Source: an uncultured Candidatus Saccharibacteria bacterium
GTDB taxonomy: Bacteria; Patescibacteriota; Minisyncoccia; Phycocordibacterales; Zambryskibacteraceae
Assembly: GCA_964355645.1 (NCBI GenBank)
Contig: CAYHDI010000001.1
Location: 28,778-92,777 of the forward strand
Length of the DNA: 64,000 nt
Direction of reading: 5' to 3'
Positions within the stretch are counted from its first letter, which is position 1. Every line of letters starts with the position of its first letter. The notes under the pieces are model-generated. The model made no database searches and was not told where the DNA came from. It worked only from the letters and a program-made list of their open reading frames with translations. The translations under genes were made by a program, and so were the position numbers. Below are positions 1 through 21,900 of this stretch, piece by piece.

Positions 1-252
1 TTTCGTCCATGATTCGCTTCGACCGCCATCTCTCCGAAGAGTTAAGGTCGGTCGGCACCACAAGGAATCATTAGAAAGCAACGAAAGACTGGGAACGCGC
101 TTTGAAACCGCCAACCAGAAACTTACGTGAAAGGTCAAAAGAAGGAAGTCGGTTTCAGATATTTTTAATCAAGGGCACCTACCAGTCGTCAAAAAATTCC
201 AAGGGCCTAAGTTTAGAAGAATATTGACTTCGAGGAAATCCGGCTTTGTGCA

Positions 253-277
253 CCACGACCCCCAATCGTGGTTTTTT
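253..277 (+). terminator. intrinsic terminator hairpin CCACGA-CCCCCAA-TCGTGG followed by T6
   Basis: perfect 6-bp stem plus T-run seen in sequence; ends an upstream plus-strand transcript of unknown identity. Confidence 0.55.
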
Positions 278-314
278 CATAGAATTTGTGTCTATCATAT
301 TTTCCCTCTTTTAT

Positions 315-350
315 ACTCTTCTTACTGCCTATAGGTAATTATTAGCGTAT
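315..350. repeat. 36-bp direct repeat copy A (ACTCTTCTTACTGCCTATAGGTAA..CGTAT), contains palindrome CCTATAGG; abuts stop codon of PaaX-like gene
   Basis: near-identical copy at 919-954; seen directly. Confidence 0.85.
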
Positions 351-916
351 TATGACAAACCAAATTCTTGACGCAAGTGACGATCATTTTCTATCTCATC
401 AGCAATAATATATAAGACATCCTTCCCTACCCCAAAGTCTGTTTTAAGTAACCCAATAATATCTTCACAGTCATAAGGATAAACCCATACACTATCCTGC
501 AATCGATATAATCCTGCTTGATTAAACAGCGAACAAATTTGCTTACGAATCTTCTTTTTCTTTTCTGGGATATCAAAGATTACAAGTCTCCATTTCTTAT
601 CCCATCTCTTGGGTTTATTGAATTTATAATCTGTAATTTCCCATAAACGCAAAACTCTTTCACCTTCATCGGTCAATTGATAACGGCCATTCTCAAACTT
701 GAGCAATCCTCTTTTTGTTAGTTTTGATGCTGAAGACAAAATATATTCATTCTGACGAGCTTTGGGTAATAATCCGAGCCTGTCCATTGCACTCAAAACA
801 TTTGGAGCAACAAGCCCAATGCTCAAAACCCCTGCAACTTGAATAGTATTAAGAACGATTTTCTGCAAATGTTCCCGCTTAGCTTTTTTCTTGTGATTTA
901 TTTCTAATTTACCCAT
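350..916 (-). CDS. PaaX-family-like regulator: N-terminal winged HTH plus C-terminal Cas2-like/PaaX_C domain
   Basis: motif W-RLVIFDIPE...R..I...L...G...LQDSVWVYP resembles PaaX C-terminal (Cas2-like fold) consensus; purine-rich RBS inside upstream repeat. Confidence 0.6.
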   Translation of the reverse strand: MGKLEINHKKKAKREHLQKIVLNTIQVAGVLSIGLVAPNVLSAMDRLGLLPKARQNEYILSSASKLTKRGLLKFENGRYQLTDEGERVLRLWEITDYKFNKPKRWDKKWRLVIFDIPEKKKKIRKQICSLFNQAGLYRLQDSVWVYPYDCEDIIGLLKTDFGVGKDVLYIIADEIENDRHLRQEFGLS

Positions 917-918
917 AC

Positions 919-954
919 ACTCTTCTTACTGCCTATAGGTAAATTATAACGTAT
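919..954. repeat. 36-bp direct repeat copy B, immediately upstream of PaaX-like start codon (carries its RBS)
   Basis: matches 315-350 with ~4 differences. Confidence 0.85.
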
Positions 955-960
955 GTGAGA

Positions 961-994
961 GAAAAAAGAATCCCCGCACCAATTGGTGCGGGGG
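961..994 (-). terminator. intrinsic terminator (minus strand): hairpin CCCCGCACC-AATT-GGTGCGGGG then T6
   Basis: perfect 9-bp GC stem plus TTTTTT on minus strand, directly downstream of small GC-rich ORF. Confidence 0.75.
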
Positions 995-1015
995 CCGCGT
1001 TGTGCGGGTTGCCGA

Positions 1016-1189
1016 CTACTTGTCGGCAGCGTCGAAGAACGGAGCGAGTTCGGCTTCGAGTTCAGGGAATCTCTCAATGAGATCGTCGGTGAGCCGACCG
1101 AGATTCTGGCGAAGTTCCATGACGGCGCTCTTGGGAGGCGCTTCGTTTCGTTTGACATAGAACTCTCCTCCCATTCCTGGGATAGCCAT
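1016..1189 (-). CDS. small GC-rich ORF (57 aa, MAIPGMGGEFYVKRNEAPPKSAVMELRQNLGRLTDDLIERFPELEAELAPFFDAADK), hypothetical
   Basis: ORF below the 60-aa track threshold found by manual translation; ends 20 nt before its own terminator; local GC far above window average. Confidence 0.4.
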   Translation of the reverse strand: MAIPGMGGEFYVKRNEAPPKSAVMELRQNLGRLTDDLIERFPELEAELAPFFDAADK

Positions 1190-1295
1190 TCCTGGCTTGT
1201 AATGGGCATTCCTGCCCGGGAACCATTCTCCTGCATACTATCATGGTTTAGTATAAAAGTCAAGGCTAAATTGGACAATAGTTAAAATATGGCTA

Positions 1296-1400
1296 TAATA
1301 GGTCGCACTATGCTTGAATATAGTGAAATTACTGAACACAAATACATTGTTTTCGAAAATGAGCCGTACGAGGTTTTGGGTGCACACGTCTTTAGAAAAC
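1296..1400 (+). pseudogene. duplicated 5' fragment of efp (first ~35 codons, ~85% nt identity to 3177-3281) fused to a Lys/Arg/Asn-rich tail (ORF 1289-1483)
   Basis: protein MLEYSEITEHKYIVFENEPYEVLGAHVFRKQ identical to EF-P N-terminus at 3177; diverges after codon ~37. Confidence 0.75.
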
Positions 1401-1472
1401 AAGAAGATTTCAAACGAAATCCTAAAAGAAATAAAGGAAAAACTAAAAGAAATTTAACAAACAATTTTCAAA

Positions 1473-2300
1473 CTATTTTGTGAGAGATTGAATCTTGGCG
1501 CGAGTGATTGGACCCATGATTCCTATTGCATCTATCCCATTAGCTTTTTGGAATTTAATGAGAGCTGCTTTAGTTAAAGTACCGAAGGTAATCGTTTCTT
1601 TACCCGTCGAACCGTCCCCTGTTTCTGCAATTAAAAAACCCTGACTATTAAGGAACTTCTGCAGATTCTTCACGTCTTCGCCTTTTGAACCAGAGCTCAA
1701 ATTATGTTTGAAGGAAGTATTTAGAGATGCACTAGTAGTCACGGCTTCAAGAGATGGGTTTGTTTGCATGATAGCAATCTGTGCTTTAAGCTTCGCAATT
1801 AAAGCTTTAATTTCTGCAATAGTGGTTGTGTTGGTGATCGCAGGGGCAACAGGGTTTGCATTTATTCTATGACTAGAGCCACCGCTTGAGCTTGAGAGAG
1901 TAGACAAAGTACAGGTACTTGATGTAGGAGTAACCGTTACTGTCACTGTGCTTCCATTATTGTAAGAAGAGAAAGTGGTTACAGACGCTGAGCTTGAACA
2001 ACTTGCTGAAGTGGTATACAAACCTCCACTCACGCTAGGAGCCAGTACCCTCTTGTCTGATGAACTCACAGTTACAGTTGAATTATCCAAAAGAACAAAG
2101 GTGAAGTTGTCTGCATTAACGATAATAGACTGAACAACAGCACTTGAGCCGGAAATATTGAGATTAATTCCCCCGACAGTGATGACCGTATCTGTAGTGA
2201 GAGTAACGTCATTGTAAGCCCCAAATGCTACAAAAGGCATCAGGCTTATACTCAATCCCAACACCAACGTTCCCAGTAGAACTTTTGTTGTTTTATACAT
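1473..2300 (-). CDS. secreted Ser/Thr-rich protein with C-terminal peptidoglycan-binding (PG_binding_1-like) domain
   Basis: N-terminal signal peptide; C-terminal motif DVKNLQKFLNSQGF...FGTLTKAALIKFQKANGIDAIGIMGPIT matches PG_binding_1 consensus. Confidence 0.7.
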   Translation of the reverse strand: MYKTTKVLLGTLVLGLSISLMPFVAFGAYNDVTLTTDTVITVGGINLNISGSSAVVQSIIVNADNFTFVLLDNSTVTVSSSDKRVLAPSVSGGLYTTSASCSSSASVTTFSSYNNGSTVTVTVTPTSSTCTLSTLSSSSGGSSHRINANPVAPAITNTTTIAEIKALIAKLKAQIAIMQTNPSLEAVTTSASLNTSFKHNLSSGSKGEDVKNLQKFLNSQGFLIAETGDGSTGKETITFGTLTKAALIKFQKANGIDAIGIMGPITRAKIQSLTK

Positions 2301-2339
2301 GGAGTGATGATTAATTATTAAGAATCAGTTAATCTCACT

Positions 2340-3113
2340 CTAGTTACGAATCATTACAATGTTGTATGTCCCAGCAGCAGGTGTACATGCCAATGCGGTC
2401 AATGTTGTGAAATCTAGTTGCAATATATCATTGGCAGATACACGATAACCTGTCATTGGACAAAGTGAAGTTGGAACAGGTCCATTAACGATTATCTTAT
2501 CCGTTGTTAATAAACTAGCAACTGCAAACGTCTGTTGAGTTGTTCCAATCGCGGCCGCAGTGGCAACTGGCGTTATAGCACCAGTCGTGAGAACAGAAAT
2601 TTTCGTAACAGCTGTTCCTCCACCAATTGCTATTGATGTCGCGGTTGCTACACCGAGAGCGGGGGTAATCAATACTGGAGATGTCATCGTTTGCACACCA
2701 GTGAATGTGTTGGCCGCATCGGTACGAGCAATTGTTGCAGATGTACTAGGAAAGGTCATCGTGGTGCCATCAGTACCAGCGAAGGTAAGAGTACTATTCG
2801 CTGTAAGAGTTTTCCCAGTAGCAAGAGTTAACACTCCTGTTCCTGTAGTAATAGTGTTGCCATTAATACTGGTGGCAGTTACCGTGCCTAAAGTGCTAGC
2901 ACCGGTGACTGTTAATGTCCCGCCCGTGTTGATATTGGTACTAATGGTCGTTGCTGCATTTACTATGCCTGTGACAAACAAAACCGAAACAATGACCGCT
3001 AGCCCAACACTAACCGGGCCTCGGCTAACAATCGTATTAAAGATATTTTTTATGGATGTCATGATGTCAAATTTATTAAAGAGGCATAATTCCTCTGCAA
3101 ATAATTGTACCAT
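2340..3113 (-). CDS. secreted Thr/Gly/Ala-rich repeat protein (putative surface/adhesin-like); start probably at MTSIKNIF (3062)
   Basis: signal peptide plus low-complexity T/G repeats; no recognisable catalytic motifs. Confidence 0.55.
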   Translation of the reverse strand: MVQLFAEELCLFNKFDIMTSIKNIFNTIVSRGPVSVGLAVIVSVLFVTGIVNAATTISTNINTGGTLTVTGASTLGTVTATSINGNTITTGTGVLTLATGKTLTANSTLTFAGTDGTTMTFPSTSATIARTDAANTFTGVQTMTSPVLITPALGVATATSIAIGGGTAVTKISVLTTGAITPVATAAAIGTTQQTFAVASLLTTDKIIVNGPVPTSLCPMTGYRVSANDILQLDFTTLTALACTPAAGTYNIVMIRN

Positions 3114-3176
3114 ACTGTTCTTTTATATATTAGGGAAATTGACAGACTGGGGATAACCCATTAAACTCCTATAACC

Positions 3177-3761
3177 ATGCTCGAATACAGCGAAATTACT
3201 GAACACAAATACATTGTTTTTGAAAATGAACCGTACGAGGTTTTGGGCGCCCATGTTTTCAGAAAACAACAGAGAAAGCCGGTGAACGCGACCAAACTGC
3301 GAAGTATGCTGACAGGTAGAATTGTAGAACATTCATTCCATGTTTCTGATAAGGCTGAAGAGGCTGATATCACCAAGAAGGAAGTGAAATATCTTTATAC
3401 GAACAAGGGCGAATTCTGGTTCTGTGAATCGAAAGATCCATCGAAAAGATTTGAACTGCCTGAAGTGATGATTGGAACTGCATCTAAATTTTTAAAACCA
3501 AATACAATTGTGGATGCCATGATTTGGGATGATGGGAAATCTGATGAAGGGAAAATCATTGGCCTGAAACTTCCAATTAAGATGGATTTGAAAGTGACCG
3601 AAGCTCATCCAGCGACGAAAGGCAACACTGCACAGGGTGCAAGCAAAATGGTCGTGCTCGAAACCGGCGCTGAAATCCAAGTCCCTATGTTTATCAAAGA
3701 AGGCGATGTCATTCGGGTAAATACTGACAACGGCGAGTATACGGATAGAATAACTAATTAG
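3177..3761 (+). CDS. efp: translation elongation factor P
   Basis: full-length alignment to EF-P (KLRSMLTG, YLYTNKGEFWF, GEYTDR motifs). Confidence 0.9.
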   Translation: MLEYSEITEHKYIVFENEPYEVLGAHVFRKQQRKPVNATKLRSMLTGRIVEHSFHVSDKAEEADITKKEVKYLYTNKGEFWFCESKDPSKRFELPEVMIGTASKFLKPNTIVDAMIWDDGKSDEGKIIGLKLPIKMDLKVTEAHPATKGNTAQGASKMVVLETGAEIQVPMFIKEGDVIRVNTDNGEYTDRITN

Positions 3762-3788
3762 ATTTAAAGAACTAAAATAAATTTAGTT

Positions 3789-4079
3789 TTAAGAAAATTT
3801 ATTTTCTTGATTATCTTCTAAAATATCAAACAATAATCCAACGAAAATTCCCACAATAATCCAATAGAAGAGAATGAAAATTGGCTCGTGAGCTATCACA
3901 AACGAGACATCTCCGAAAACTTTGTAGATAACCATGAGGGGCATGAACACGGGTGTGAGAAATGGATCAGCGAAGCATCCCTGCCCCGCCGATGCTGGGC
4001 AAGTGATTTTCAAAATGAACAAAACTCCAACGAGAGCTGGAGCGAAGAATGCACCTTGAATGGCATAAGGAATTTTCAT
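3789..4079 (-). CDS. small hydrophobic membrane protein, hypothetical
   Basis: ORF with 3 predicted TM segments. Confidence 0.45.
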   Translation of the reverse strand: MKIPYAIQGAFFAPALVGVLFILKITCPASAGQGCFADPFLTPVFMPLMVIYKVFGDVSFVIAHEPIFILFYWIIVGIFVGLLFDILEDNQENKFS

Positions 4080-4100
4080 GCATAAATTATAACTTATTCT

Positions 4101-4202
4101 GGTAACAAAAAAGCAGTTTTCGTGCCTCTCGGAAAGCTTGGCTTGAGAGGAGAAGTTTTCAACAGAGAACTATCGTGCAAAGAAAACTGCTTTTTTGTTA
4201 CC
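4101..4202. terminator. long inverted repeat (21-nt perfect arms GGTAACAAAAAAGCAGTTTTC / GAAAACTGCTTTTTTGTTACC enclosing a 60-nt structured core); candidate bidirectional terminator or small structured RNA
   Basis: seen directly; T-runs follow the inner stem on both strands; lies between rpsR stop and next gene. Confidence 0.5.
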
Positions 4203-4401
4203 TAGTAATATAAGGCAAGAATCCCATGAACCTTGCGCGTTTGATGGCCAAGGAAATCATTTGTTGAGACTTCGAAGAGATACCACTGCGCTTTTTGGAT
4301 TGAATCCTGGCGTGCGGGGTAAGGAATTTCTTCAAGGTATCTACATCCTTATAATCAACATAATTAATTTTGTGCTCTTTAAGAAAATCTGATTTTTTCA
4401 T
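4198..4401 (-). CDS. rpsR: 30S ribosomal protein S18
   Basis: INYVDYKDVDTLKKFLT...AIKRARFMGFLPY matches S18. Confidence 0.92.
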   Translation of the reverse strand: MKKSDFLKEHKINYVDYKDVDTLKKFLTPHARIQSKKRSGISSKSQQMISLAIKRARFMGFLPYITR

Positions 4402-4425
4402 TTTACTTGTAGCGAGTTAATCGAA

Positions 4426-4875
4426 CTAAAACGGGATATCTTCTGGGCTAATATTTTCTTCAGGATAATCTATGGTGTCTATGGATGGAGCTTCAGGAGC
4501 TGGATTTTCTTTCTTCGAAGCAGTCGAAGATCCTGACGGTACTCCGGAAGGACGGGGTCCGAATTGCACTCTGTCAGCCACAATTTCTGTACGATATTTC
4601 TTCGTCCCATCTGCGGCATCCCAACTTCGAGTTTGCATTCTACCTTCGACCAAGGCACTGGCTCCTTTGCGGAGATACTGCCCGGCTGTCTCAGCCTGTC
4701 GACCGAAAACCACAATATTGTGATAGTCCGCAGATTCTTGTTTCGCTCCATTCTTGTCTTTCCAAACTCGATTAGTAGCTAGAGAGAAAGAACAAACTTG
4801 AATTCCAGATGGAAGAGATTTAATCTCGGGATCTCGAGTAAGATTGCCTATGACTATGGCTTTGTTTAAATACAT
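4426..4875 (-). CDS. ssb: single-stranded DNA-binding protein
   Basis: OB-fold SSB signature (IVIGNLTRDPE...YHNIVVFGRQAE) and acidic C-terminal DIPF tail; start at MYLNK (4875), ORF track extension overlaps rpsF. Confidence 0.9.
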   Translation of the reverse strand: MYLNKAIVIGNLTRDPEIKSLPSGIQVCSFSLATNRVWKDKNGAKQESADYHNIVVFGRQAETAGQYLRKGASALVEGRMQTRSWDAADGTKKYRTEIVADRVQFGPRPSGVPSGSSTASKKENPAPEAPSIDTIDYPEENISPEDIPF

Positions 4876-4882
4876 AAAGATA

Positions 4883-5398
4883 TTATATATTATTTCCAGA
4901 CGTTTCAGTCGTAATTTCTGGCTCCTGGGCTTTCCCGACGCCTTCCAGGGTCGGGACTCCGATCTCTTCGAGCATCGGAGCTTCTTGTGCTCGACGAGCT
5001 TCACGTGCTTCAGCAAAGGTGAAAGTTGTCTCTCGAGGAGCTTTAATGAGCAAGAATCGAAGAATTTCTTCAATTTTCTCTATGCCAGCCTTAATCTCTT
5101 CAACTGCTGAAGGTTCAGCCTCGAATTTCATCCAACCGATATAAGCCTCGTTAACCACATATTTTCTCGCCCCAACAGTTTTGGACATCGAATATGCGAG
5201 TGTCTCGAGGAATGGCAATTCAGAATCTAGAGTCTTGCCTCCAGCTTTTTCTATTGTAGAAACAATTGTAGAGACCACTTTTGGAATATTGTCTTCGGTC
5301 ACACTTGGAAGGACCAAGTATCCGAGTTCATAAACAATAGCTTCCTTGTGGTCTTCTGTAATGGACATGAGTAAATCGTTAATCATTAATAATCTCAT
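4883..5398 (-). CDS. rpsF: 30S ribosomal protein S6 with acidic/Glu-rich C-terminal extension
   Basis: YELGYLVLP...GG...LAYS pattern of S6; classic rpsF-ssb-rpsR order. Confidence 0.85.
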   Translation of the reverse strand: MRLLMINDLLMSITEDHKEAIVYELGYLVLPSVTEDNIPKVVSTIVSTIEKAGGKTLDSELPFLETLAYSMSKTVGARKYVVNEAYIGWMKFEAEPSAVEEIKAGIEKIEEILRFLLIKAPRETTFTFAEAREARRAQEAPMLEEIGVPTLEGVGKAQEPEITTETSGNNI

Positions 5399-5471
5399 AT
5401 GCGCTTCCCCTATTTCAGAGATGCGTACAGAAGCCTGTCCGCCGTAGCCTTGGCGAAGGCGGGAGGTTTGG

Positions 5472-6254
5472 CTACTTTAGCACTAAGTTAAACATTCGGC
5501 AAGTGTTGGAAACTAAGGCTTTTTGGACAGTTTCCAAATCCTCTCCTCTTATTTCAGCGATTTTCTTCACTACCTCTTGCACATAGCTCGGCTCGTTGCG
5601 CTTGCCTCTATAAGGAACTGGCGAGACCCATGGGGCATCAGTCTCGGACATAATCATATTGAGTGGTGCATTCTTAATCACTTCATCATAATCTCGAGCA
5701 AAGGTTATCACTCCCGTGAATGACGTGGTGAATCCTATGGTCCAAAATCTTTTGGCTTGTTCGAGTGAACCGGTGAAAAAATGCAAATCCCCTCGAAGTT
5801 TTGGACCGTACAATTTAGCCAATGGTTCAAGGATTTCGAGAATTTCTTCGTACGCATCACGAGAGTGAATCATGATAGGTTTGTTGTGTTTAATAGCAAA
5901 GTTAATCTGCTCAAAGAAAAGATTTTTCTGTCTTTCAAAGTCTGTTGTTTTGTCTGTATGAAAAAAATCTAGCCCGCATTCCCCTATCGCGACTACTTTC
6001 GGGTGGTTTATTAATTCTTCAAATTTGTCTTCCTCAAAAACTATTTTGGGATCATCGACCGGATGAACACCAATACACGCATAAATTTCTTCGTGTTTTT
6101 CTGCGAGTTCTACTGCCCGTTTAGATGATTCGAAGTCTACACCCACTACAATTGTATGGGTTCCAGTTTCCTTGAGCCGATTGATGACTTCTTCTAAATC
6201 TTCACTGTAGTCAGGCAAATTTAAATGCGAATGTATATCAAAATATTTAGGCAT
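5472..6254 (-). CDS. tatD: TatD-family metal-dependent hydrolase/DNase
   Basis: FDIHSHL, GECGLDF, TDAP motifs. Confidence 0.88.
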   Translation of the reverse strand: MPKYFDIHSHLNLPDYSEDLEEVINRLKETGTHTIVVGVDFESSKRAVELAEKHEEIYACIGVHPVDDPKIVFEEDKFEELINHPKVVAIGECGLDFFHTDKTTDFERQKNLFFEQINFAIKHNKPIMIHSRDAYEEILEILEPLAKLYGPKLRGDLHFFTGSLEQAKRFWTIGFTTSFTGVITFARDYDEVIKNAPLNMIMSETDAPWVSPVPYRGKRNEPSYVQEVVKKIAEIRGEDLETVQKALVSNTCRMFNLVLK

Positions 6255-7706
6255 TTATAGTGAGCTTGTCGAACTATCTTTTCTTAAAAATAATGGTTCG
6301 CTTGGTTTCTTGTTTTCTTTTATTAGTTTCTGTATTTTTAATGCTGTATCAGGCATAAATGGGGCGAGCGCGTCTGCTACTCCACGAAGACCCGTGACTA
6401 ATTCGGAAATAATTTCTTTCGCTTTTTCTGGATCAGTTTTAACTAATTTAAATGGTTCTGTTTCTTGAATTTTTTTATCTAATTCTGCAATTTTTTCCCA
6501 AACTAAATTCATCGCCTTGGCTATTTCAAATTTTTCTAATTCACTTCCAATGGCCAACACTCGGTGTTGGCCAATTGGAACATCCGAATATTTTTCGGCC
6601 ATAGTCATAATTCTTGAGGTCAAATTCCCTATCCCATTCGCTAATCCTGAATTATAAGCTTCATTAAATCTCTCCCAGGTGAAATCGGAGTCTTCAAAAG
6701 TTGAGAGTTCCCTGCACACAAAGTATCTAAGAGCTTCAGCACCGTATTTCTCAACCACTTCTACGGGGTTTATCACGTTGCCTAGGGACTTGGACATTTT
6801 TTGACCATTTGCGCCCTGTATAAAGCCATTTATGACTATTTGATAAGAGGTTGGAAGACCGGCAGACATAAGCATGGCTTGCCACATAGCTGATTGTTGT
6901 CTAAGATTGTCCTTGCCCGCGTATTGAGTTGGATTGCCGTTGGCCCAATACTTTTCAAAATTTTCTTTGTTTTCGGGCCAACCGAGAGTGGAAACATAAT
7001 TAACCAAAGCATCAAACCAAACGTACATCACGTGGTCTTCATCTCCGGGAACAGGAATCCCCCAACTCATTTTTGACTTTAAGCGCGAGATAGAGAAATC
7101 TTCCAGTCCCCTTTCTACGAATGCTTTAATCTCATTAAACCGAAAATCCGGCACTACAAAATTTGGATTATTCTTGTACAAATCCAAAAGAGGTTTTTGA
7201 TATTTAGAGAACCTAAAGAAATAATTTTCTTCTTCTCTTTCTTCTAATTCAAGATTTGTATGAATACTACATCTTCCATTTTCAAGTTCTGAATCCGTTT
7301 TCTCCAATTCACAACCAATACAATATTTAATCTTGTAATTCTTTTTATATATATCTCCATTTGCCTCACATCTCTTCCAAAATTCTTGAGCCGATTTTAT
7401 ATGATGTTCATCTGTGGTGCGAATAAAATGTATTTCTGGGTCAATATGTAAATCAATAAGTATTTGTTTAAAATATTGGACGTATTCATCAACATAGCTT
7501 TGGGGGTCTTTGTTCTCTTCTACAGAACGTTGGTATATTTTTATTCCGTGTTCATCTGTGCCTGTATTAAAAAATACTTCAAAACCAATCAATTTTTTAT
7601 AACGATTTACAACATCGGCTCGTATAAATTCCATAGCGTGTCCTATGTGAGGTTGTCCGTTTACATACGGCAGGGTCGTGGTGATATAAAAACTTTTTCG
7701 GCTCAT
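6255..7706 (-). CDS. metG: methionyl-tRNA synthetase (core only, no C-terminal tRNA-binding domain); contains in-frame palindrome at 6552-6572
   Basis: P-x-x-NG-x-PHIGH, zinc knuckle CxxC, KMSKS. Confidence 0.92.
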   Translation of the reverse strand: MSRKSFYITTTLPYVNGQPHIGHAMEFIRADVVNRYKKLIGFEVFFNTGTDEHGIKIYQRSVEENKDPQSYVDEYVQYFKQILIDLHIDPEIHFIRTTDEHHIKSAQEFWKRCEANGDIYKKNYKIKYCIGCELEKTDSELENGRCSIHTNLELEEREEENYFFRFSKYQKPLLDLYKNNPNFVVPDFRFNEIKAFVERGLEDFSISRLKSKMSWGIPVPGDEDHVMYVWFDALVNYVSTLGWPENKENFEKYWANGNPTQYAGKDNLRQQSAMWQAMLMSAGLPTSYQIVINGFIQGANGQKMSKSLGNVINPVEVVEKYGAEALRYFVCRELSTFEDSDFTWERFNEAYNSGLANGIGNLTSRIMTMAEKYSDVPIGQHRVLAIGSELEKFEIAKAMNLVWEKIAELDKKIQETEPFKLVKTDPEKAKEIISELVTGLRGVADALAPFMPDTALKIQKLIKENKKPSEPLFLRKDSSTSSL

Positions 7707-7713
7707 TGTTTGT

Positions 7714-8766
7714 TTAGAGACTAGAGTCTGAAAAACGGGCGGCTTTGTTTTTCTCCAAGTCGTTTATTAACTCCATGAAAACCGCAGCCACAGGCACGGA
7801 GATGACTATTCCGAGGAAACCGGCGAGTTGTCCTCCAATCAGAAGCGCGAGGATAGAAATCATTGGGGGCACACCTACCACCTTTTTCACTACCAAAGGA
7901 TAAATAAGTTGATTCTCAAATTGTTGAACAATGACGAAAAGTCCAGCCACAATGAGAGCTTGAGACATTCCTCCGCCAGTGAAAGCTACGAGAATTGCAG
8001 GAATGGCGGCCAGGATTGGCCCGAAGAGAGGAATAATCTCAAACATCCCCGCTGCAACAGCCAGGAGAAGAGGGTGTTCAACCCGAACTAGGAGCAGACC
8101 TAAATATACCAAAACTGCAATGATGGCCGCGAGCAGAATTTGTCCCTGCATCCAAAGTCCGATTTTTTTCTTTGAGCGATCCCACAAATCCAAAATATAT
8201 TTTTCTTGTTTCCACGGAGTGACCACTCGGAGGAACATTCCCACCCCATCTTCCTGAACAGCCAAGTAGAAAGACAGAACAATTATGAGAACAAAACTAA
8301 ATACTCCACCAAAAAGAAAAGTGGCACTAGTAAACACTCCGGTTGAAAGAGTTGAGACAAATGAATTGATATGATCAGCGATGCTTTGAGCAGAAATCGA
8401 ATTAGTTACAGAACCGAAGAAATTTGAGAGGTTCGGGTCACTCACGAGAGCTTTTGAATATTCAGGAAAGGCACGAATGAAATTCGAAATTTCTCCGAGC
8501 AAAGGGAGGAATAGGAAATAGAAAAGCCCAGCGAACAATATCCCTGTGATGATATAAACTCCAAGGATGGTTGGTAATCGGGGAAAAGACATTTTCTTCG
8601 CCCAGACAGCCGCCGGTTCAATCGCCGAAGCTATCACTATGGAAACAAGGATGACCAAGACTAAATCCCGAAGAATAAACAGGGCTACCGCAGCCAAAAT
8701 GATGAGGACTCCTCTCACCCAGCTCCCAGTAGTTATAGTCAATTTGTGATTTTCGGCTTCTTTCAT
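7714..8766 (-). CDS. AI-2E family transporter (UPF0118/PerM-like)
   Basis: 8 TM segments and conserved C-terminal VGVPPMISILALLIGGQLAGFLG segment. Confidence 0.8.
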   Translation of the reverse strand: MKEAENHKLTITTGSWVRGVLIILAAVALFILRDLVLVILVSIVIASAIEPAAVWAKKMSFPRLPTILGVYIITGILFAGLFYFLFLPLLGEISNFIRAFPEYSKALVSDPNLSNFFGSVTNSISAQSIADHINSFVSTLSTGVFTSATFLFGGVFSFVLIIVLSFYLAVQEDGVGMFLRVVTPWKQEKYILDLWDRSKKKIGLWMQGQILLAAIIAVLVYLGLLLVRVEHPLLLAVAAGMFEIIPLFGPILAAIPAILVAFTGGGMSQALIVAGLFVIVQQFENQLIYPLVVKKVVGVPPMISILALLIGGQLAGFLGIVISVPVAAVFMELINDLEKNKAARFSDSSL

Positions 8767-10037
8767 TTGCCCAATAATAGCACCTTTTTAAGATTTTTCT
8801 CGTTTCTAATATCTCCTACCACCGCGAGGTTCAGATTCTTGTTTTGGAAAATTTCCTTGGCCACTTTCATGATGTCTTTGGCTGTGACCTTCTCTATTTC
8901 GATTCTCGATTGTTCAGGAGTTTTTATCGAACGTTTCAAAACTTCTTGGATACCATAAAATTCGGCAAGAGAATCAGAAGTTTCTAAGCCCAAGTACATT
9001 CGACCAATCATGAGGTTTTTTGTTTTTTTAAGTTCTGAGACATCTACCGGTTCAGTAGCAAATCTTTTGAGTTCTTTTAGAATAACTTCAATTACTTCAT
9101 TTACACGTTTTGAATTTACACCAACAGCCATTTCAAATGTTCCGTGGTCGGTATATCTGTCAGTTTCAGCATGAACATAGTAGCAAGCCCCCATTTCGTC
9201 TCTAAGTTTATGGAAAAGCCTTGAAGACATGCCTTTTCCTAAAATAGCAGCGAGAACTTTGAGAGTTGGCAAACGTTTGTCAAAAATATTATAAGCTCTA
9301 AAACCCAAAATAAGATGGGTTTGATCAGTTTTTTTGTATTTTATTATAACTTGTGGTGTTTTTTGGATTTCTATAACTTTTTTCTTTGGAGTTTTCTCTG
9401 TGGTAGAAATATCTTTAAAGATTTTCTCAACATCCTTAAAAACTTTTTTTGAATCACATTTACCAGCCACAATTACAGTTGTAGCCTGTGCCACATAATG
9501 CTGTTGGCGATATTTAATAAAGTCTTCTCGCTTCATATCACGAATGACTTCAGCGGGACCCAAAATACTCCAACCGGCCGGTTGATCTCCGTACAAAAGC
9601 TTCATGAACAATCTGCCCACATCTCGTTGAGGCAAATCTTCATTCATTGAAATCTCCTGGAGAATAACTCCTTTTTCTTTTTGCATTTCAGTTTCAGAAA
9701 ATATTGGGTTCAAATACATATCAGAAATAACATCAAGAATTTTATGGTATTGGCTGTGCTCTGCTTTCGCATAATAAGCCGTGAGTTCTTGAGAAGTGAA
9801 AGCGTTGGATTCTGCCCCTAAACTATCTAATTCTTTGTGAATGATAGCGGGGGTTGGTCGGCGTTTGGTGCCTTTGAAATTCATGTGCTCAAGAAAGTGC
9901 GAAATACCACTTTTGTTCTTGGTTTCGTATTTTGAACCCGCTTCTACCAAAACGAGAACCGTCACCGTCTTTGCGTCCTTCATTGGGACAGCCACAATTC
10001 GCATCCCGTTTTTAAGTATTTTCTTTTTATATTTCAT
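8763..10037 (-). CDS. M16 family zinc peptidase (insulinase-like)
   Basis: HFLEHM (HxxEH) inverted zincin motif near N-terminus. Confidence 0.85.
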   Translation of the reverse strand: MKYKKKILKNGMRIVAVPMKDAKTVTVLVLVEAGSKYETKNKSGISHFLEHMNFKGTKRRPTPAIIHKELDSLGAESNAFTSQELTAYYAKAEHSQYHKILDVISDMYLNPIFSETEMQKEKGVILQEISMNEDLPQRDVGRLFMKLLYGDQPAGWSILGPAEVIRDMKREDFIKYRQQHYVAQATTVIVAGKCDSKKVFKDVEKIFKDISTTEKTPKKKVIEIQKTPQVIIKYKKTDQTHLILGFRAYNIFDKRLPTLKVLAAILGKGMSSRLFHKLRDEMGACYYVHAETDRYTDHGTFEMAVGVNSKRVNEVIEVILKELKRFATEPVDVSELKKTKNLMIGRMYLGLETSDSLAEFYGIQEVLKRSIKTPEQSRIEIEKVTAKDIMKVAKEIFQNKNLNLAVVGDIRNEKNLKKVLLLGK

Positions 10038-10061
10038 AGTGAGAAGAGTGTACCAGAAATT

Positions 10062-10097
10062 AAGAATAAAAGAAAAAGGCCACTACTAGAGTGGCGC
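10062..10097 (-). terminator. intrinsic terminator (minus): GCCACT-ACTA-GAGTGGC plus T-run
   Basis: seen directly, immediately 3' of 10086-10277 ORF. Confidence 0.6.
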
Positions 10098-10277
10098 GAG
10101 CTCATCAATCCTGGCCATCAACCTTTCGATGGCCTCCAGATTCTTGGCCCTCAAAGCCGCCTGTTCTGGAGAGAGTGGGGCCATGTGAATGAATGCCAGA
10201 TTCTGCTCTTGGTGTCTTTGAAGATCGTCCATAAGGAGACCAATCTCACTACCAAACTCAGAAGTGCTGCTTGTCAC
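10086..10277 (-). CDS. small GC-rich hypothetical protein (63 aa)
   Basis: ORF with GC well above neighbours, own terminator, inserted between peptidase and glyQS. Confidence 0.4.
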   Translation of the reverse strand: MTSSTSEFGSEIGLLMDDLQRHQEQNLAFIHMAPLSPEQAALRAKNLEAIERLMARIDELAPL

Positions 10278-10330
10278 GATCTTCCTCCCAGGAATGGTCT
10301 ACAACCAACCTACACCTATTTAAACCTTTG

Positions 10331-11551
10331 TCAAATTGTCTCTTTTAGATTCGCAATCTTCGCTCTCTTCTGTTCCCCTGTGTCTCTATCACGAACAGTC
10401 ACCGTATCATCTTTCAAAGTATCAAAATCAATAGTGATGCAGGCCGGAGTACCTATCTCATCTTGTCTGCGATATCTCTTACCTATATTCCCATTATCAT
10501 CAAAAACAATTTGAGGAAAATCTTTCTTGAGCATCATATAAACCTCTCGGGCCTTGGCCACCAACTCTGGCTTGTTTTTCAAAAGTGGAAAGACTGCTGT
10601 CCGAACTGGCGCAATATTTTTTGAAAGTTTTAGGAAACTCCTCTTTTCTCCCCCGAGTTCATCTTCAGTATAAGCCGAGGACAAGACTGCAAGGATTGTT
10701 CGATCCACTCCGAAAGTCGGTTCAATCACGTGTGGAGAAAATCTATCTCCAGATTCTTCATCAAAATATTCAAGCGGTACACTGCTCGAAGCACTGTGGT
10801 TTTTCAAATCAAAATCAGTTCTGTAAGCAAGACCATATAATTCTTTCTTACCAAAAGGAAAATCAAATTCGAAATCTACAGTGCGTTTAGAATAATGCGC
10901 TCTCTCTTCTTCTGGGACTTCAAGTTCATGAATAGAATTTTTCGGCAGGCCGATTTCTTTCATCCAATCAAACATTTGTTCTTTCCAACTTTCGAAAAAA
11001 TCTTTCCAGTCTTTCTCTCGCACGAAATATTCTATTTCCATTTGCTCAAACTCTCGTGTTCTGAAGATAAAATCTCTTGGTGAAATCTCGTTTCTGAAAG
11101 CCTTACCAATTTGAGCCAAGCCGAAAGGCAATTTCGGATGAAAGGCATCAACTACATTTTTGAAATTTACAAACATTCCTTGCGCAGTTTCCGGACGAAG
11201 ATATGAATCAATCGCCTCTTCCCCTGCCCCAACAGCCGTCTTGAACATCACATTAAACTGCTTCCCTTCTTCGGTCGGATCGACGAATCCAGCCACATGT
11301 CCGGACGCTTCCCAAACTTTCGGATTCATAATAATAGCTGCATCAATCCCGAACATATCATCTCGGTTTTCTACAAATTTTCTCCACCACAAAGATTTGA
11401 TATTGTTTTTTAAAGTGACACCCAAAGGCCCATAGTCCCAAGTACCAGCTAGTCCGCCATAAATCTCTGAACCTTGAAAGATAAATCCGCGTCTTTTGCA
11501 GAGCGATATAACCTTGTCCATGAGTTCCGAATCTTTGGATATCATTTCCAC
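10331..11551 (-). CDS. glyQS: glycyl-tRNA synthetase, class II dimeric (GlyQS) type
   Basis: RRGFIFQGSEIYGGLAGTWDYGPLG N-terminal signature. Confidence 0.9.
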   Translation of the reverse strand: MEMISKDSELMDKVISLCKRRGFIFQGSEIYGGLAGTWDYGPLGVTLKNNIKSLWWRKFVENRDDMFGIDAAIIMNPKVWEASGHVAGFVDPTEEGKQFNVMFKTAVGAGEEAIDSYLRPETAQGMFVNFKNVVDAFHPKLPFGLAQIGKAFRNEISPRDFIFRTREFEQMEIEYFVREKDWKDFFESWKEQMFDWMKEIGLPKNSIHELEVPEEERAHYSKRTVDFEFDFPFGKKELYGLAYRTDFDLKNHSASSSVPLEYFDEESGDRFSPHVIEPTFGVDRTILAVLSSAYTEDELGGEKRSFLKLSKNIAPVRTAVFPLLKNKPELVAKAREVYMMLKKDFPQIVFDDNGNIGKRYRRQDEIGTPACITIDFDTLKDDTVTVRDRDTGEQKRAKIANLKETI

Positions 11552-11570
11552 AATATTAGCTATTTTCAGC

Positions 11571-13490: not shown

Positions 13491-13516
13491 GTATTAAGTA
13501 TATCAAGAAAAAGGCA

Positions 13517-14026
13517 CTAATCCGCTAGATGACTGGCCTCCAAACCTTTATTAATAGCCTTAATTAGGTCCTTTTTAGGAAGTTTTAAATCAACTTCTTT
13601 TAAATACCCAAGATGGAAAAGAATTTGTGAGACAAAATGAATTTCAAACATTTCATCTCGACTAGCAAGAACGGTTCTTGCTAGAATTTCGCGTGTCGCT
13701 TCAAAAAGTTCTGGATTCGGGGCTTCGCCTTGAACTAATTTCTCAAGAAGTATGAGGGGTTTCAAAATTTCAGGTGTTGAAAGAATAGTCTTTATAAATT
13801 CTGCAGAAGTGATTCTCCAATATTCTTTGCCCCGTACAAGAGAAACCGAAACAAAGGAAATCGGCTCGAGTAATCCTCGAAGCTTGGAATGCCCCTTCCT
13901 CACCCCCGTCGCTGTGGCTCTTATTAGCCCCAAATCCTTTGTGAGTATTGAATAAACCCTATCCGCTTCGCGTAGAGGCCTGTATGAGAGCACCAAACCT
14001 TCTGTGGTGTGTATTGTGTAAGACAC
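13517..14026 (-). CDS. recO: DNA repair protein RecO (short form)
   Basis: N-terminal OB-fold pattern EGLVLSYRPLREADRVYSILTKDLGLIRATATG. Confidence 0.65.
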   Translation of the reverse strand: MSYTIHTTEGLVLSYRPLREADRVYSILTKDLGLIRATATGVRKGHSKLRGLLEPISFVSVSLVRGKEYWRITSAEFIKTILSTPEILKPLILLEKLVQGEAPNPELFEATREILARTVLASRDEMFEIHFVSQILFHLGYLKEVDLKLPKKDLIKAINKGLEASHLAD

Positions 14027-14045
14027 AGAAATTAAAAATTATGAA

Positions 14046-17426: not shown

Positions 17427-17441
17427 TGTGGGCTTATCTTA

Positions 17442-19046: not shown

Positions 19047-19104
19047 TTGTCTTTGAATCCATCATACCCGAAATAAGCCAATAAAAAAGCCCGAGTCCGA
19101 AGAT

Positions 19105-19734: not shown

Positions 19735-19796
19735 GCAAACCCCCCGAGAATGTCTTCCAACACTTTACTCACTTTTTATATAAAAGCAAAACTATC

Positions 19797-20219
19797 TTAC
19801 TTAACATCCACCCCCATTGACCTTGCGGTACCTTCAATGATTTTCATCGCAGCGTTTAAGTCGTTCGCATTGAGGTCAGACATTTTCTTCTCTGCAATTT
19901 CTTTCACTTGAGTTTTGGTGAGTGTGCCGATTTTCTTGGTGTTCGGAGTACCCGAACCTTTCTCTTGTTTTAAAACTTTTAATATCAAATTTGAAGCTGG
20001 CTCTGTTTTATAAGTGAGATGATATGTCCTGTCTTCATAAACTTCCACAATTGTAGGCACTGTATCTCCGATGCGATCCTTCGTCTCATCATTAAAACGC
20101 TTGACAAATTCGCCGATGTTTATACCCGCTCCTCCGAGAACTGGACCGAGAGCTTGTCCGGGCACAGCTTTGCCCCCAGGAATCTGTAATTTGAGAATTT
20201 TTGTAACTTTTTTGGCCAT
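19797..20219 (-). CDS. rplK: 50S ribosomal protein L11
   Basis: full-length L11 match. Confidence 0.93.
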   Translation of the reverse strand: MAKKVTKILKLQIPGGKAVPGQALGPVLGGAGINIGEFVKRFNDETKDRIGDTVPTIVEVYEDRTYHLTYKTEPASNLILKVLKQEKGSGTPNTKKIGTLTKTQVKEIAEKKMSDLNANDLNAAMKIIEGTARSMGVDVK

Positions 20220-21034: not shown

Positions 21035-21083
21035 TTAAAAAAATTGCAAACAAATAGGCCGGTCGCAGAGTCTGCGACCGGCC
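21035..21083 (-). terminator. intrinsic terminator (minus): 12-bp stem GGCCGGTCGCAG-AGTC-CTGCGACCGGCC plus T-run; second small hairpin+T-run at 20995-21015
   Basis: seen directly downstream of GC-rich ORF 21134-21670. Confidence 0.7.
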
Positions 21084-21133
21084 ACCTAATATCTAGGATT
21101 TTGTGCAAACTACTTGCCTGTCTATGCGCAGGT

Positions 21134-21670
21134 TTACCTGCCCGCGATTTTTCTCGCCAACGTAAACGTGCGGGAAGAGACACCGCACTCTAGCGCTTCC
21201 TCTACCTCGAACAACTCCCTGATCGCCTGAACGTGCGTCACTTTTCGGCCATCGATCATGGTGACCGTGGTGCCCGCTAAACCAAATCGATCTGGATATG
21301 GTTGCACACGCACGAGCACCTCCATCGCTGCACCGATGGAACCATGCTCCCCGAAATCCACGACCGATGTCTCAATGATGTGACTTCCCCGGCGCCACCT
21401 CGCTTCCACGATCCTCTCTGATGTAGCTGTGGTTACCGTCGCCATGAGACCCCAGGCATCGAATTGGTAATTCCTCCTCGACGCCGTGCCTGTGGAATCT
21501 GCCCAGGTGTCAATAGCATTGGGCACCCACCACACATCAAGCGGTGGAACACTAGCGAATACTCGCGCCACGATTTCATAAAAACTTCGCGCAGCGTTTG
21601 GATCGGTCGCACATGACAAACATTCGATTCTCTTTACTCTCACTGTATTATCCTCACGACTTGTGCCCAC
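21134..21670 (-). CDS. GC-rich hypothetical protein (178 aa), compositionally foreign
   Basis: long ORF with strong terminator; no recognisable motifs. Confidence 0.5.
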   Translation of the reverse strand: MGTSREDNTVRVKRIECLSCATDPNAARSFYEIVARVFASVPPLDVWWVPNAIDTWADSTGTASRRNYQFDAWGLMATVTTATSERIVEARWRRGSHIIETSVVDFGEHGSIGAAMEVLVRVQPYPDRFGLAGTTVTMIDGRKVTHVQAIRELFEVEEALECGVSSRTFTLARKIAGR

Positions 21671-21900
21671 TTGGCAGTGAGCGTTTCTCGCTACGAGGAT
21701 AGACTAGAATAGTCTTCGCCATAGCTTCAAATTTACGAGTGTGCAACATCGAATGTTGCACAATTCATACACTCAAAGCTGTGGCGAATTGTGTTTGCAA
21801 GTAGTTAAAGAACTTAACCACATTTAGTATACACCTTTTATGTGTTTTGTCAAGGACTTTCTTGAGTACCAAAAAGAGCCTTGTTTATAGGCTCATTTTA

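What the first reader, a model, noticed from the sequence alone, without database searches (positions are those of the whole stretch)
961..1189. Small GC-rich minus-strand ORFs with private intrinsic terminators scattered among housekeeping genes
- Three ORFs have GC content far above the ~38% background, similar to the DGR target genes:
  - 1016-1189 (57 aa, manual call);
  - 10086-10277 (63 aa);
  - 21134-21670 (178 aa).
- Each is followed by a strong hairpin-plus-T-run terminator: 961-994, 10062-10097, 21035-21083.
- They interrupt otherwise conserved gene strings: before efp, between the M16 peptidase and glyQS, and upstream of secE-nusG-rplK.
- None has recognisable motifs.
- They may be horizontally acquired small genes (toxin/antitoxin-like or DGR-related cargo).
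Basis: seen in the sequence. Interest (0 to 1): 0.5.

Follow-up and report, generated by a model that had tools for sequence, protein, structure and literature searches.

The report
Orphan gene cassettes, one decayed
The three GC-rich small ORFs are unrelated, lineage-specific gene cassettes sitting in variable gaps between housekeeping genes of a groundwater Parcubacteria genome: one is a real protein gene, one cannot be verified, and the headline one is the broken stump of a gene that keeps a conserved, previously undescribed folded RNA leader.

Summary
The three ORFs are 52-55% GC against 41.5% for the window, with GC3 of 0.57-0.60 against 0.41±0.09. Only the two DGR target genes rank higher. 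Each ORF ends at a real intrinsic terminator.

None of the three resembles a toxin-antitoxin or DGR component, and they are unrelated to each other; the 'ELAP' similarity is noise.

- **ORF3:** the true start is GTG 21643, giving 169 aa. It is a genuine orphan protein gene, with dN/dS 0.22 against a syntenic homologue, and only two members among about 15 billion proteins.
- **ORF2:** seen in this genome only. It lies in a glyS-M16 gap that is under 100 bp in about half of 41 relatives and carries unrelated cargo in others.
- **ORF1:** not a 57-aa gene.
  - Its first 16 codons are a conserved RNA leader.
  - Its last 41 codons match the C-terminus of a roughly 140-aa orphan gene in the same efp-recA gap of two relatives.
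  - About 280 nt are missing, and a 5-nt tandem duplication puts the start codon out of frame.

The leader has three 5-bp hairpins, each capped by a GNRA tetraloop, between a UUCC and the ribosome-binding site. Five compensatory pairs support it, and it has no Rfam match. Its function is inferred, not shown.

The parts
1235..1263 (-). ORF1-locus promoter: TTGACT, 17-nt spacer, TAGTAT preceded by TG (extended -10)
   Evidence: Found by the promoter scan. The -35 and the TGATAGTAT/TGATATTAT -10 are conserved in L003 and L009.
1159..1229 (-). Structured 5' leader. Anti-SD UUCC 1222-1219; hairpin 1 1217-1204; hairpin 2 1197-1184; hairpin 3 1182-1169, each a 5-bp stem with a GGAA (GNRA) loop; SD GGAGAG 1168-1163.
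   Evidence: The minimum-free-energy fold is a four-way junction, z -3.1. All 18 pairs are paired in all 3 sequences, 5 pairs show compensatory changes, and 0 of 500 shuffles match this. The covariance model finds only the window, L003 and L009. No Rfam match. Coordinates checked.
1156..1158 (-). AUG served by the Shine-Dalgarno sequence; homologous to the start codon of the full-length gene in L009 and L003
   Evidence: Alignment. This reading frame has no similarity to the homologues and runs through the terminator to 904.
1144..1153 (-). Tandem 5-nt duplication AAACG AAACG that puts the AUG out of frame with the relic C-terminal coding sequence
   Evidence: Removing one copy gives an in-frame 45-aa ORF, MSNEAPPKSAV...AADK.
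1016..1141 (-).
   Evidence: Ungapped, end-to-end match to residues 103-143 of P0003 (L009). Smith-Waterman score 60 against 22.4±3.8 for shuffles, 0 of 5000; 12 of 40 identical and 22 of 40 positive. RNA folding z -0.5, so it is not a structured RNA.
962..993 (-). Intrinsic terminator of the ORF1 locus
   Evidence: 9-bp stem with 8 GC pairs, followed by TTCTTTTTT. It is the top-ranked site of the scan of 1-20000.
10307..10334 (-). Candidate ORF2 promoter: TTGACA (overlaps the glyS stop codon), 16-nt spacer, TAGGTT
   Evidence: Read from the sequence. It is below the scan's threshold, so it is weak evidence.
10086..10277 (-). ORF2: 63 codons, GTG start, SD GGGAGGA at 10289-10283. A single-genome orphan whose coding status is unverified.
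   Evidence: Not called as a gene in public gene calls. RNA folding z -0.6. No relative among the cargo of the same gap in 18 other genomes. No family match.
10062..10097 (-). Terminator after ORF2 and the glyS unit; the ORF2 stop codon lies in its loop
   Evidence: 6-bp stem plus T-run. The stretch between it and the M16 start is conserved in L009.
21826..21853 (-). ORF3 promoter: TTGACA, 16-nt spacer, TATACT (11 of 12 matches)
   Evidence: Found by the scan. Identical in L002.
21644..21825 (-). ORF3 5' UTR, with an 83-nt conserved block (21726-21644) ending in SD GAGGA
   Evidence: The block is 87% identical to L002, against 73.5% for the coding sequence. A hairpin is predicted in both sequences.
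21134..21643 (-). ORF3: 169-aa orphan protein gene, intact and under purifying selection
   Evidence: P0001 is 99% identical and P0002 is 67% identical at the syntenic site. There is an in-frame 3-nt indel. dN/dS is 0.22. The profile search of 1.84 billion representatives finds only its own cluster.
21047..21133 (-). ORF3 3' UTR (50 nt, 90% conserved) and intrinsic terminator 21083-21057
   Evidence: 12-bp stem with 10 GC pairs. The stem sequence differs in L002 but still pairs. Identity figures.

Best explanation
The three ORFs are three unrelated, lineage-restricted ('orphan') accessory gene cassettes in a groundwater Parcubacteria genome. Each is its own transcription unit: a sigma-70-type promoter, a leader, a small ORF and an intrinsic terminator. 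Each sits in a gap between conserved housekeeping genes that is empty or differently filled in related genomes.

- **ORF3** is an intact protein gene of 169 aa, kept by purifying selection. Its function is unknown.
- **ORF2** may be a 63-aa protein gene, but it exists in this genome only and cannot be verified.
- **ORF1** is the decayed stump of a roughly 140-aa orphan gene ('X'). In two relatives X occupies the same efp-recA gap.
  - The stump keeps the promoter, a roughly 70-nt folded leader, the ribosome-binding site, the start codon, the last 41 codons and a strong terminator.
  - It has lost about 280 nt of coding sequence.
  - A 5-nt tandem duplication shifts the reading frame.

In the leader, an upstream UUCC is predicted to pair with the ribosome-binding site across a junction of three GNRA-capped hairpins. 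This most likely limits translation of X until some factor opens it; that factor is unknown and may be the X protein itself.

Shown here: the anatomy, the synteny, the homology, the selection on ORF3 and the covariation in hairpins 1 and 2. Inferred: masking of the ribosome-binding site, the regulatory role, and horizontal origin as the cause of the high GC.
For: **Composition and transcription-unit anatomy:**

**Variable gaps**

- glyS-M16.
- efp-recA.

**ORF3**

- Syntenic homologue at 67% identity.
- An in-frame indel and a compensatory terminator stem.
- dN/dS is 0.22, against 0.03-0.10 for neighbouring genes.
- Nothing else found among 5.8 billion clusters or 1.84 billion representatives.

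**ORF1**

- The leader is 86% identical over 73 nt to L009.
- The three-genome alignment includes a conserved promoter.
- The structure has 100% of cells paired and 5 compensatory pairs; 0 of 500 shuffles match, and slid controls pair only 35-47%.
- The C-terminal 41 aa are homologous to P0003, z about 10.
- The L009 and L003 proteins are homologous to each other: Smith-Waterman score 69, z about 9.7.
- The frame served by the ribosome-binding site shows no homology and has no stop codon before the terminator.
- A 5-nt duplication causes the frameshift.
- The sequence is identical in six independent assemblies, so it is not an assembly error.
- Public gene calls leave both the ORF1 and ORF2 regions empty.
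Against: - ORF2 has no comparative support at all. It could be a chance ORF in GC-rich DNA.
- The UUCC:GGAG pairing never varies, so covariation cannot test it. Thermodynamic prediction supports it in the window and L009, but L003 prefers another fold that leaves the ribosome-binding site free.
- Only three examples of the leader are known.
- The promoter, leader and terminator of the ORF1 stump are all intact. That could mean the RNA still has a role rather than being a dead gene.
- Horizontal origin is not proven. The ORF1 family is syntenic in a distant relative at native GC. ORF3 has kept a high GC3 in both relatives (0.59 and 0.64) across dS of about 0.95. That could equally reflect gene-specific selection on composition.
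Confidence: 0.7

Rival explanations
1. The ORF1 locus is now a small non-coding RNA gene. A transcript of about 265 nt, made of the folded leader, the coding relic and the terminator, is kept because the three-hairpin leader still binds and titrates the same factor that controls X genes. It would act as a decoy, in the way CsrB acts on CsrA.
For: The promoter (extended -10), all three hairpins, the ribosome-binding site and a very strong terminator are intact even though the coding sequence is broken. The whole transcript folds far better than shuffles, with z -4.6 and 0 of 200.
Against: The folding signal comes only from the leader and the terminator; the relic itself has z -0.5. A recent deletion plus a 5-nt duplication explains the intact flanks just as well. 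No factor is known, and no second target with this leader exists in the 64-kb window or in 1.4 Mb of relatives.
Confidence: 0.15
2. The leader is a CsrA/RsmA-type target. GGA motifs presented in hairpin loops, plus one in the ribosome-binding site, would be bound by a CsrA dimer to repress translation.
For: In the window and L009 every loop reads CAGGAAUG, close to the CAGGA(U/A/C)G repeats of CsrB (from established knowledge). The spacing of 12-20 nt suits a dimer. csrA transcripts have been reported from groundwater ultra-small prokaryotes (PMC9938205).
Against: In the closest relative, L003, all three loops are GCGA and contain no GGA, while the hairpins are kept by compensatory changes. 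No csrA or fliW was found in the window or in 1.4 Mb of related loci. That covers only part of each genome.
Confidence: 0.08
3. One reading: the three are horizontally acquired toxin-antitoxin-like genes or DGR-related cargo.
For: They are small, GC-atypical, have their own promoter and terminator, and lie in variable gaps. The two DGR target genes of this window share the same layout of high GC, a strong promoter and a strong terminator.
Against: They are single genes without partners. There is no match to PADLOC, Pfam, NCBIfam or PHROGs. There are no relatives in phage, plasmid or viral collections. They share no sequence with either TR/VR pair. They show no similarity to the DGR target proteins or to each other.
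Confidence: 0.05
4. ORF2, and the 57-aa reading of ORF1, are chance open frames. GC-rich DNA has few stop codons, so ORFs appear in several frames without being genes.
For: Several overlapping ORFs of 50-124 aa occur on both strands at 900-1290 and 10185-10514. Gene callers called nothing there. ORF2 has no homologue anywhere tested.
Against: ORF2 has a perfect -35 box, a strong ribosome-binding site 6 nt before its GTG, and a stop codon inside the terminator loop. For ORF1 the C-terminal frame is demonstrably ancestral coding sequence.
Confidence: 0.3

Closest known systems
Lineage-specific orphan (ORFan) genes in variable intergenic gaps ('genomic islets') between conserved operons
   Same: The genes have few or no homologues and atypical composition. 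Each has its own promoter and terminator. The flanking genes are conserved, while the gap is empty or differently filled in relatives.
   Different: There are no integrase, tRNA or repeat hallmarks at the ORF2 and ORF3 sites. The ORF1 family is syntenic across fairly distant genomes, so it is not simply a recent import.
Ribosome-binding-site-sequestering 5' leaders (translational riboswitches, RNA thermometers, protein-controlled leaders)
   Same: An upstream pyrimidine stretch (UUCC) is predicted to pair with GGAG. A multi-helix junction sits directly before the start codon. The leader is better conserved than the gene it precedes.
   Different: It matches none of the 4227 Rfam families. No ligand or protein is known. 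The masking helix is only 4 bp and never varies. Only three examples exist. The three loops are identical within each genome (GGAA three times, or GCGA three times).
CsrA/RsmA-binding leaders and CsrB-type decoy RNAs
   Same: Tandem short hairpins present CAGGAAUG, with a further GGA in the ribosome-binding site.
   Different: The GGA is not conserved; the orthologue in L003 has GCGA loops.
Bacterial pseudogenes formed by internal deletion plus slipped-strand duplication
   Same: The gene is truncated relative to its orthologues. A short tandem repeat causes a frameshift. The regulatory flanks remain intact.
   Different: The deletion may have first produced a viable 45-aa mini-gene, since the frame is restored by removing one AAACG copy. 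Its age is unknown.

Membership tests
Type II toxin-antitoxin module | Two adjacent, co-transcribed small genes (toxin plus antitoxin) | tested here: not met
   Each locus holds a single ORF between its own promoter and terminator.
Type II toxin-antitoxin module | Sequence match to a known toxin, antitoxin or defence family | tested here: not met
   There were no significant matches in Pfam, PADLOC, PHROGs or NCBIfam at E up to 0.1. The only rows listed at that threshold are chance-level: for ORF1, PF13887 at E 0.049 and 13.3 bits against a 24.1-bit cut-off; for the ORF3 homologue P0002, TIGR00522 at E 0.044 and 13.2 bits against a 114.3-bit cut-off.
DGR target or accessory gene | A variable region matching a template repeat, with mismatches at template adenines | tested here: not met
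   A self-comparison of the window finds TR/VR pairs only at 27479-27589/27830-27940 and 52096-52211/52486-52601. Nothing touches the three ORFs.
DGR target or accessory gene | Homology to the DGR targets of the same element | tested here: not met
   Smith-Waterman z scores against both target proteins range from -1.0 to 3.4.
Intrinsic (Rho-independent) terminator | GC-rich hairpin followed directly by a T-run, on the strand of the gene | tested here: met
   Sites at 993-972, 10095-10079 and 21083-21057. The stem of the last one is kept by different sequence in L002.
Protein-coding gene under selection (ORF3) | dN/dS well below 1, with indels in multiples of three, against an orthologue | tested here: met
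   dN/dS is 0.22 with dS 0.95, and the only indel is 3 nt.
Pseudogene or gene remnant (ORF1) | Truncation and frame disruption relative to intact orthologues at the same site | tested here: met
   The orthologues are 143 aa (L009) and 138 aa (L003), against 41 homologous codons here. The AUG served by the ribosome-binding site is out of frame because of a 5-nt duplication.
CsrA/RsmA-binding leader | GGA in the hairpin loops, conserved among orthologous leaders | tested here: not met
   The loops are GGAA in the window and L009 but GCGA in L003.
CsrA/RsmA-binding leader | The genome encodes CsrA | tested here: inconclusive
   tblastn finds none in the window or in 80 related loci, but only part of each genome was held.
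Any described RNA family (Rfam 15) | Covariance-model match at or near the gathering score | tested here: not met
   At the leader positions no match appears even at E up to 10 in the window or L009. In L003 one chance-level row, on the opposite strand, lies inside the leader: RF01334 (CRISPR-DR21) at 18985-19000, 13.8 bits against a gathering score of 48, E 8. Elsewhere in the searched stretches only chance-level rows far below gathering scores are listed, on the terminator in the window and on the promoter region in L009. The ORF2 and ORF3 regions also gave no credible match.
Structured cis-regulatory leader (generic) | Helices supported by compensatory base changes among homologues | tested here: met
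   Hairpins 1 and 2 have 5 of 10 pairs with changes on both sides and none broken. Hairpin 3 and the UUCC:GGAG helix never vary, so they are untested.
Structured cis-regulatory leader (generic) | Ribosome-binding site occluded in the folded state | tested here: inconclusive
   The ribosome-binding-site G residues are predicted paired with probability above 0.9 in the window and L009, but unpaired in the preferred fold of L003.

The most novel reading that the evidence does not exclude
The roughly 70-nt leader would be a new class of cis-regulatory RNA in Parcubacteria. It is a four-way junction whose three arms carry identical GNRA tetraloops, and these change in concert between genomes (GGAA three times in two genomes, GCGA three times in a third). 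That pattern implies one multivalent partner that reads all three loops. The partner could be the fast-evolving X protein itself, repressing its own translation by locking the ribosome-binding site. In this window the coding part has decayed while the RNA part survives, so the locus may persist as a decoy RNA.
Probability: 0.2. Interest if true: 0.6.

Novelty: new member of a known kind. Interest (0 to 1): 0.33.

Why it matters
As posed, the finding is mostly ordinary. Small genomes of uncultivated Parcubacteria carry a few strain- or clade-specific orphan genes in the gaps between housekeeping operons, and one of the three here is a dead stump.

Three points are useful.

- **Gene calling in AT-rich genomes.** GC-rich islands throw up mechanical ORFs, and the 57-aa 'ORF1' fuses an RNA leader to a coding relic.
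- **Variable gaps as landmarks.** The glyS-M16 and efp-recA junctions are recurrent variable gaps across this clade. In different genomes they carry sigma factors, anti-sigma-like proteins and orphans. That makes them good places to study gene gain and loss in organisms that cannot be grown.
- **A candidate RNA element.** The three-tetraloop leader is a compact regulatory RNA candidate supported by covariation, in a phylum where almost no regulation is understood. If more examples confirm it, it would be a testable entry point.

Tried and rejected
- **Rfam.** The gathering-threshold search of the whole window found only 8 tRNAs. Permissive searches of each locus and of the two orthologous leaders found nothing credible.
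- **Metagenome and viral pattern scans.** A viral scan for hairpin 3 plus the ribosome-binding site found nothing.
- **CsrA idea.** It was attractive at first, then undercut by the GCGA loops of L003 and by the absence of csrA in the DNA held.
- **Protein homology.** ORF1 shared no index words with anything. The L009 protein P0003 found only itself. The ORF3 profile against 1.84 billion representatives found its own cluster plus three repetitive surface proteins, judged spurious because they arise from many weak stretches.
- **Structure prediction.** It failed for ORF3 (pLDDT 34) and for P0003 (pLDDT 41), so no fold search was run.
- **Phage, plasmid and viral relatives.** None for ORF2, ORF3 or P0003.
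- **More relatives of this strain.** Exact look-ups of EF-P and the PaaX-like protein returned only the same strain, from six assemblies.
- **ORF2 as a remnant of other gap cargo.** Comparing all six frames of the ORF2 gap with the cargo of the same gap in 18 genomes gave 2740 comparisons and no meaningful score.
- **Shared origin of the GC-rich ORFs.** All pairwise tests between ORF1, ORF2, ORF3 and the two DGR targets were at noise level.

Full report
**Source and setting**

The window comes from an uncultivated Parcubacteria (Paceibacteria-like) genome from Hainich groundwater. It is identical to part of the contig Hain_H52_01um_R2_11, 189 kb. The nearest genomes in the reference set are Parcubacteria and Paceibacterota MAGs. 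The window is 41.5% GC.

**Checking the observation**

- The three ORFs are 55.2%, 51.6% and 54.4% GC.
- At third codon positions they score 0.60, 0.57 and 0.59. The mean over 55 other ORFs is 0.41±0.09. Only the two DGR target genes are higher, at 0.77 and 0.74.
- The hairpin-plus-T-run terminators are real. Two of them (993-972 and 21083-21057) are the best-scoring sites in their 20-kb scans.
- The two DGR targets have the same layout of strong promoter, GC-rich ORF and strong terminator.
- No Rfam family matches any of the three regions, even at E up to 10.
- There were no significant matches for the peptides in Pfam, NCBIfam, PHROGs or PADLOC. The only rows listed at E up to 0.1 score far below their curated cut-offs.

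**ORF3 (21134-21643)**

A search of 5.8 billion protein clusters returned two hits. One is the same protein called from GTG 21643 (169 aa, P0001). The other is P0002, 67% identical.

P0002 lies at the same place, after the SIMPL-domain gene and before secE, on a contig whose flanks are 86.5% identical to the window. The alignment shows:

- an identical promoter (TTGACA, 16 nt, TATACT);
- a single 3-nt indel in the coding sequence;
- a terminator whose stem differs in sequence but still pairs.

Nei-Gojobori dN/dS is 0.22 at dS 0.95, against 0.03-0.10 for five neighbouring genes. ORF3 is therefore a real protein gene that evolves fast but is under purifying selection.

Its homologue is just as GC-rich: 55% against 41% for the rest of that contig, with GC3 0.64.

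The non-coding flanks are better conserved than the coding sequence, which is 73.5% identical:

- an 83-nt block of the 5' UTR is 87% identical;
- the 50-nt 3' UTR is 90% identical.

A profile search of 1.84 billion representatives found only its own cluster plus spurious multi-stretch hits in repetitive surface proteins. AlphaFold gave pLDDT 34. Its function remains unknown.

**ORF1 (961-1189)**

No homologue was found for the 57-aa peptide. Public gene calls leave the region empty.

A nucleotide comparison showed that 1153-1222 is 86% identical to a site in L009, a Parcubacteria genome whose GlyRS is only 72% identical to the window's.

*The hairpins.* The stretch consists of three tandem 5-bp hairpins with GGAA loops:

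- GGGCA-GGAA-UGCCC
- AGCCA-GGAA-UGGCU
- UCCCA-GGAA-UGGGA

These are followed by GGAGAG, 4 nt and then AUG.

*The relatives.*

- In L009 the same AUG opens a 143-aa ORF followed by a terminator. The whole unit lies divergent to efp and before recA.
- In the closest relative, L003 (GlyRS 87% identical), the same gap holds the same promoter and leader and a 138-aa ORF.
- The two proteins are homologous, with Smith-Waterman score 69 and z about 9.7. They are orphans: P0003 finds only itself.

*The relic coding sequence.*

The score is 60 against 22.4±3.8 for shuffles, 0 of 5000; 12 of 40 residues are identical.
- The frame opened by the AUG at 1158, the one served by the ribosome-binding site, shows no homology. 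It has no stop codon until 904, beyond the terminator.
- The two frames differ because of a tandem AAACG AAACG at 1153-1144. Removing one copy gives an in-frame 45-aa ORF.
- About 280 nt of the ancestral gene are missing.
- The sequence is identical in six independent assemblies.

ORF1 is therefore a gene remnant. Its apparent N-terminus, MAIPGMGGEF..., is the leader read as protein.

**The leader**

- All three versions share the promoter (TTGAC, 17 nt, TGATAGTAT), a UUCCC element, three hairpins, a ribosome-binding site and an AUG.
- In L003 the loops are GCGA, not GGAA. Both sequences are GNRA tetraloops.
- The stems of hairpins 1 and 2 differ through compensatory changes. On an 18-pair model, 100% of cells pair and 5 pairs change on both sides. 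No shuffle of 500 matches this, and slid controls pair only 35-47%.
- The minimum-free-energy folds of the window and L009 leaders are four-way junctions closed by UUCC pairing with GGAG of the ribosome-binding site.
- L003 prefers an alternative fold that frees the ribosome-binding site. Masking is therefore inferred, not shown, and the closing helix never varies.
- A covariance model built from the three sequences finds no further copy in the window or in 80 related loci totalling 1.42 Mb. A simple search for three GNRA hairpins in a row also finds no further compact copy followed by a ribosome-binding site; it lists six other loose triplets in other loci, which I judged to be chance.
- None of the three leaders matches an Rfam family.
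- The CsrA-site reading, suggested by CAGGAAUG, fails on the GCGA loops. No csrA was found in the DNA held.
- The relic coding part is not unusually structured (z -0.5). The strong folding signal of the whole transcript (z -4.6) comes from the leader and the terminator.

**ORF2 (10086-10277)**

- It has a perfect -35 box overlapping the glyS stop codon, a weak -10, the ribosome-binding site GGGAGGA 6 nt before its GTG, and a stop codon inside the terminator loop.
- Its RNA is not unusually structured (z -0.6).
- No homologue exists in any held locus or in the phage records searched.
- The glyS-M16 adjacency is present in 41 related loci. The gap is at most about 100 bp in 23 of them and 147-3197 bp in the rest.
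- The inserts are unrelated to each other. L003 carries a 251-aa FliA-like sigma factor at 52% GC in a 41% GC genome, with its own promoter and terminator. L009 carries a 79-aa zinc-ribbon ORF.
- All six frames of the ORF2 gap were compared with all cargo ORFs of 18 such gaps. Nothing meaningful emerged.
- Its coding status stays open. I put it near 50%.

**Relations among the ORFs and to the DGR**

- Pairwise tests among ORF1, ORF2, ORF3, the L009 protein and the two DGR target proteins are at noise level, apart from ORF1 against the L009 protein.
- The 'ELAP' resemblance has z about 2.2.
- The window's repeats include two TR/VR pairs, at 27.5/27.8 kb and 52.1/52.5 kb. Neither touches these ORFs.

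**Origin of the high GC**

Three observations favour exchange among Parcubacteria of differing GC:

- the gaps are variable;
- the L003 copy of X is also GC-enriched, at 48% against 41%;
- the window's leader and relic resemble the distant 53%-GC genome L009 more than the closest relative L003.

Two observations count against a simple recent import:

- the X family is syntenic in three genomes;
- ORF3 has kept its high GC3 in two lineages separated by dS of about 1.

I treat horizontal origin as plausible but unproven.

**Verdict**

The finding comes down to three unrelated orphan cassettes: one live, one unverifiable and one dead. The dead one carries a compact RNA leader supported by covariation and not described before. 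That leader is the only part worth further work.

Noticed in passing
window 1307-1402 and 3174-3269 (64-aa ORF 1289-1483): The first 31 codons of efp are duplicated, with 89% nucleotide identity. All 10 differences are synonymous. The upstream copy is a stump that runs into unrelated sequence. The two copies bracket two surface-protein genes (1473-2300 with a PG_binding domain; 2340-3113). This looks like a rearrangement or recombination scar. The purely synonymous differences are odd for a dead fragment.
   Followed up: partly
window 312-350 and 916-954, flanking 350-916: A 188-aa PaaX_M/Cas2-like winged-helix gene is bracketed by 39-nt direct repeats that are 87% identical. It is absent from the same efp-recA gap in L003 and L009, so it looks like a separate insertion next to the ORF1 stump.
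   Followed up: partly
window 27479-27589/27830-27940 and 52096-52211/52486-52601; RT at 26064-27143: There are two DGR template/variable repeat pairs but only one reverse transcriptase in the window. The second pair lies 25 kb from the RT. Both target genes (27817-28524 and 52484-53143) have no Pfam match and have the highest GC3 in the window.
   Followed up: no
window 25560-25651 and 31292-31383: A 92-nt intergenic repeat, 88% identical, with a GC-rich core (GGCCGACGGGCC). One copy lies just after rplS. Its function is unknown.
   Followed up: no
window 21644-21726 and 21084-21133: The ORF3 5' UTR block (87%) and 3' UTR (90%) are more conserved against L002 than the coding sequence (73.5%). 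They could be regulatory RNA elements or a 3'-UTR-derived small RNA.
   Followed up: partly
window about 21900-21975: A roughly 75-nt insert of G-tract and C-tract inverted repeats (CCCTCC...GGGAGGGG...CCCCC...GGGGG) lies between the SIMPL gene and the ORF3 promoter. It is absent from the relative L002 and drew only chance microRNA-like Rfam hits.
   Followed up: no
window 21000-21015: A terminator-like hairpin plus T-run sits immediately before the secE start codon and is conserved in L002. It could be an attenuator of the secE-nusG operon.
   Followed up: no
L003 11343-12098; L011, L013, L035, L037, L048, L065 and L081 efp-recA gaps: In relatives the same gaps carry regulators. L003 has a GC-rich FliA-like sigma factor between glyS and M16. 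Seven genomes have an ECF-type sigma factor between efp and recA; in four of them (L011, L037, L048, L065) it is followed by a small membrane protein of about 110 aa that could be an anti-sigma factor, a role I did not test.
   Followed up: partly
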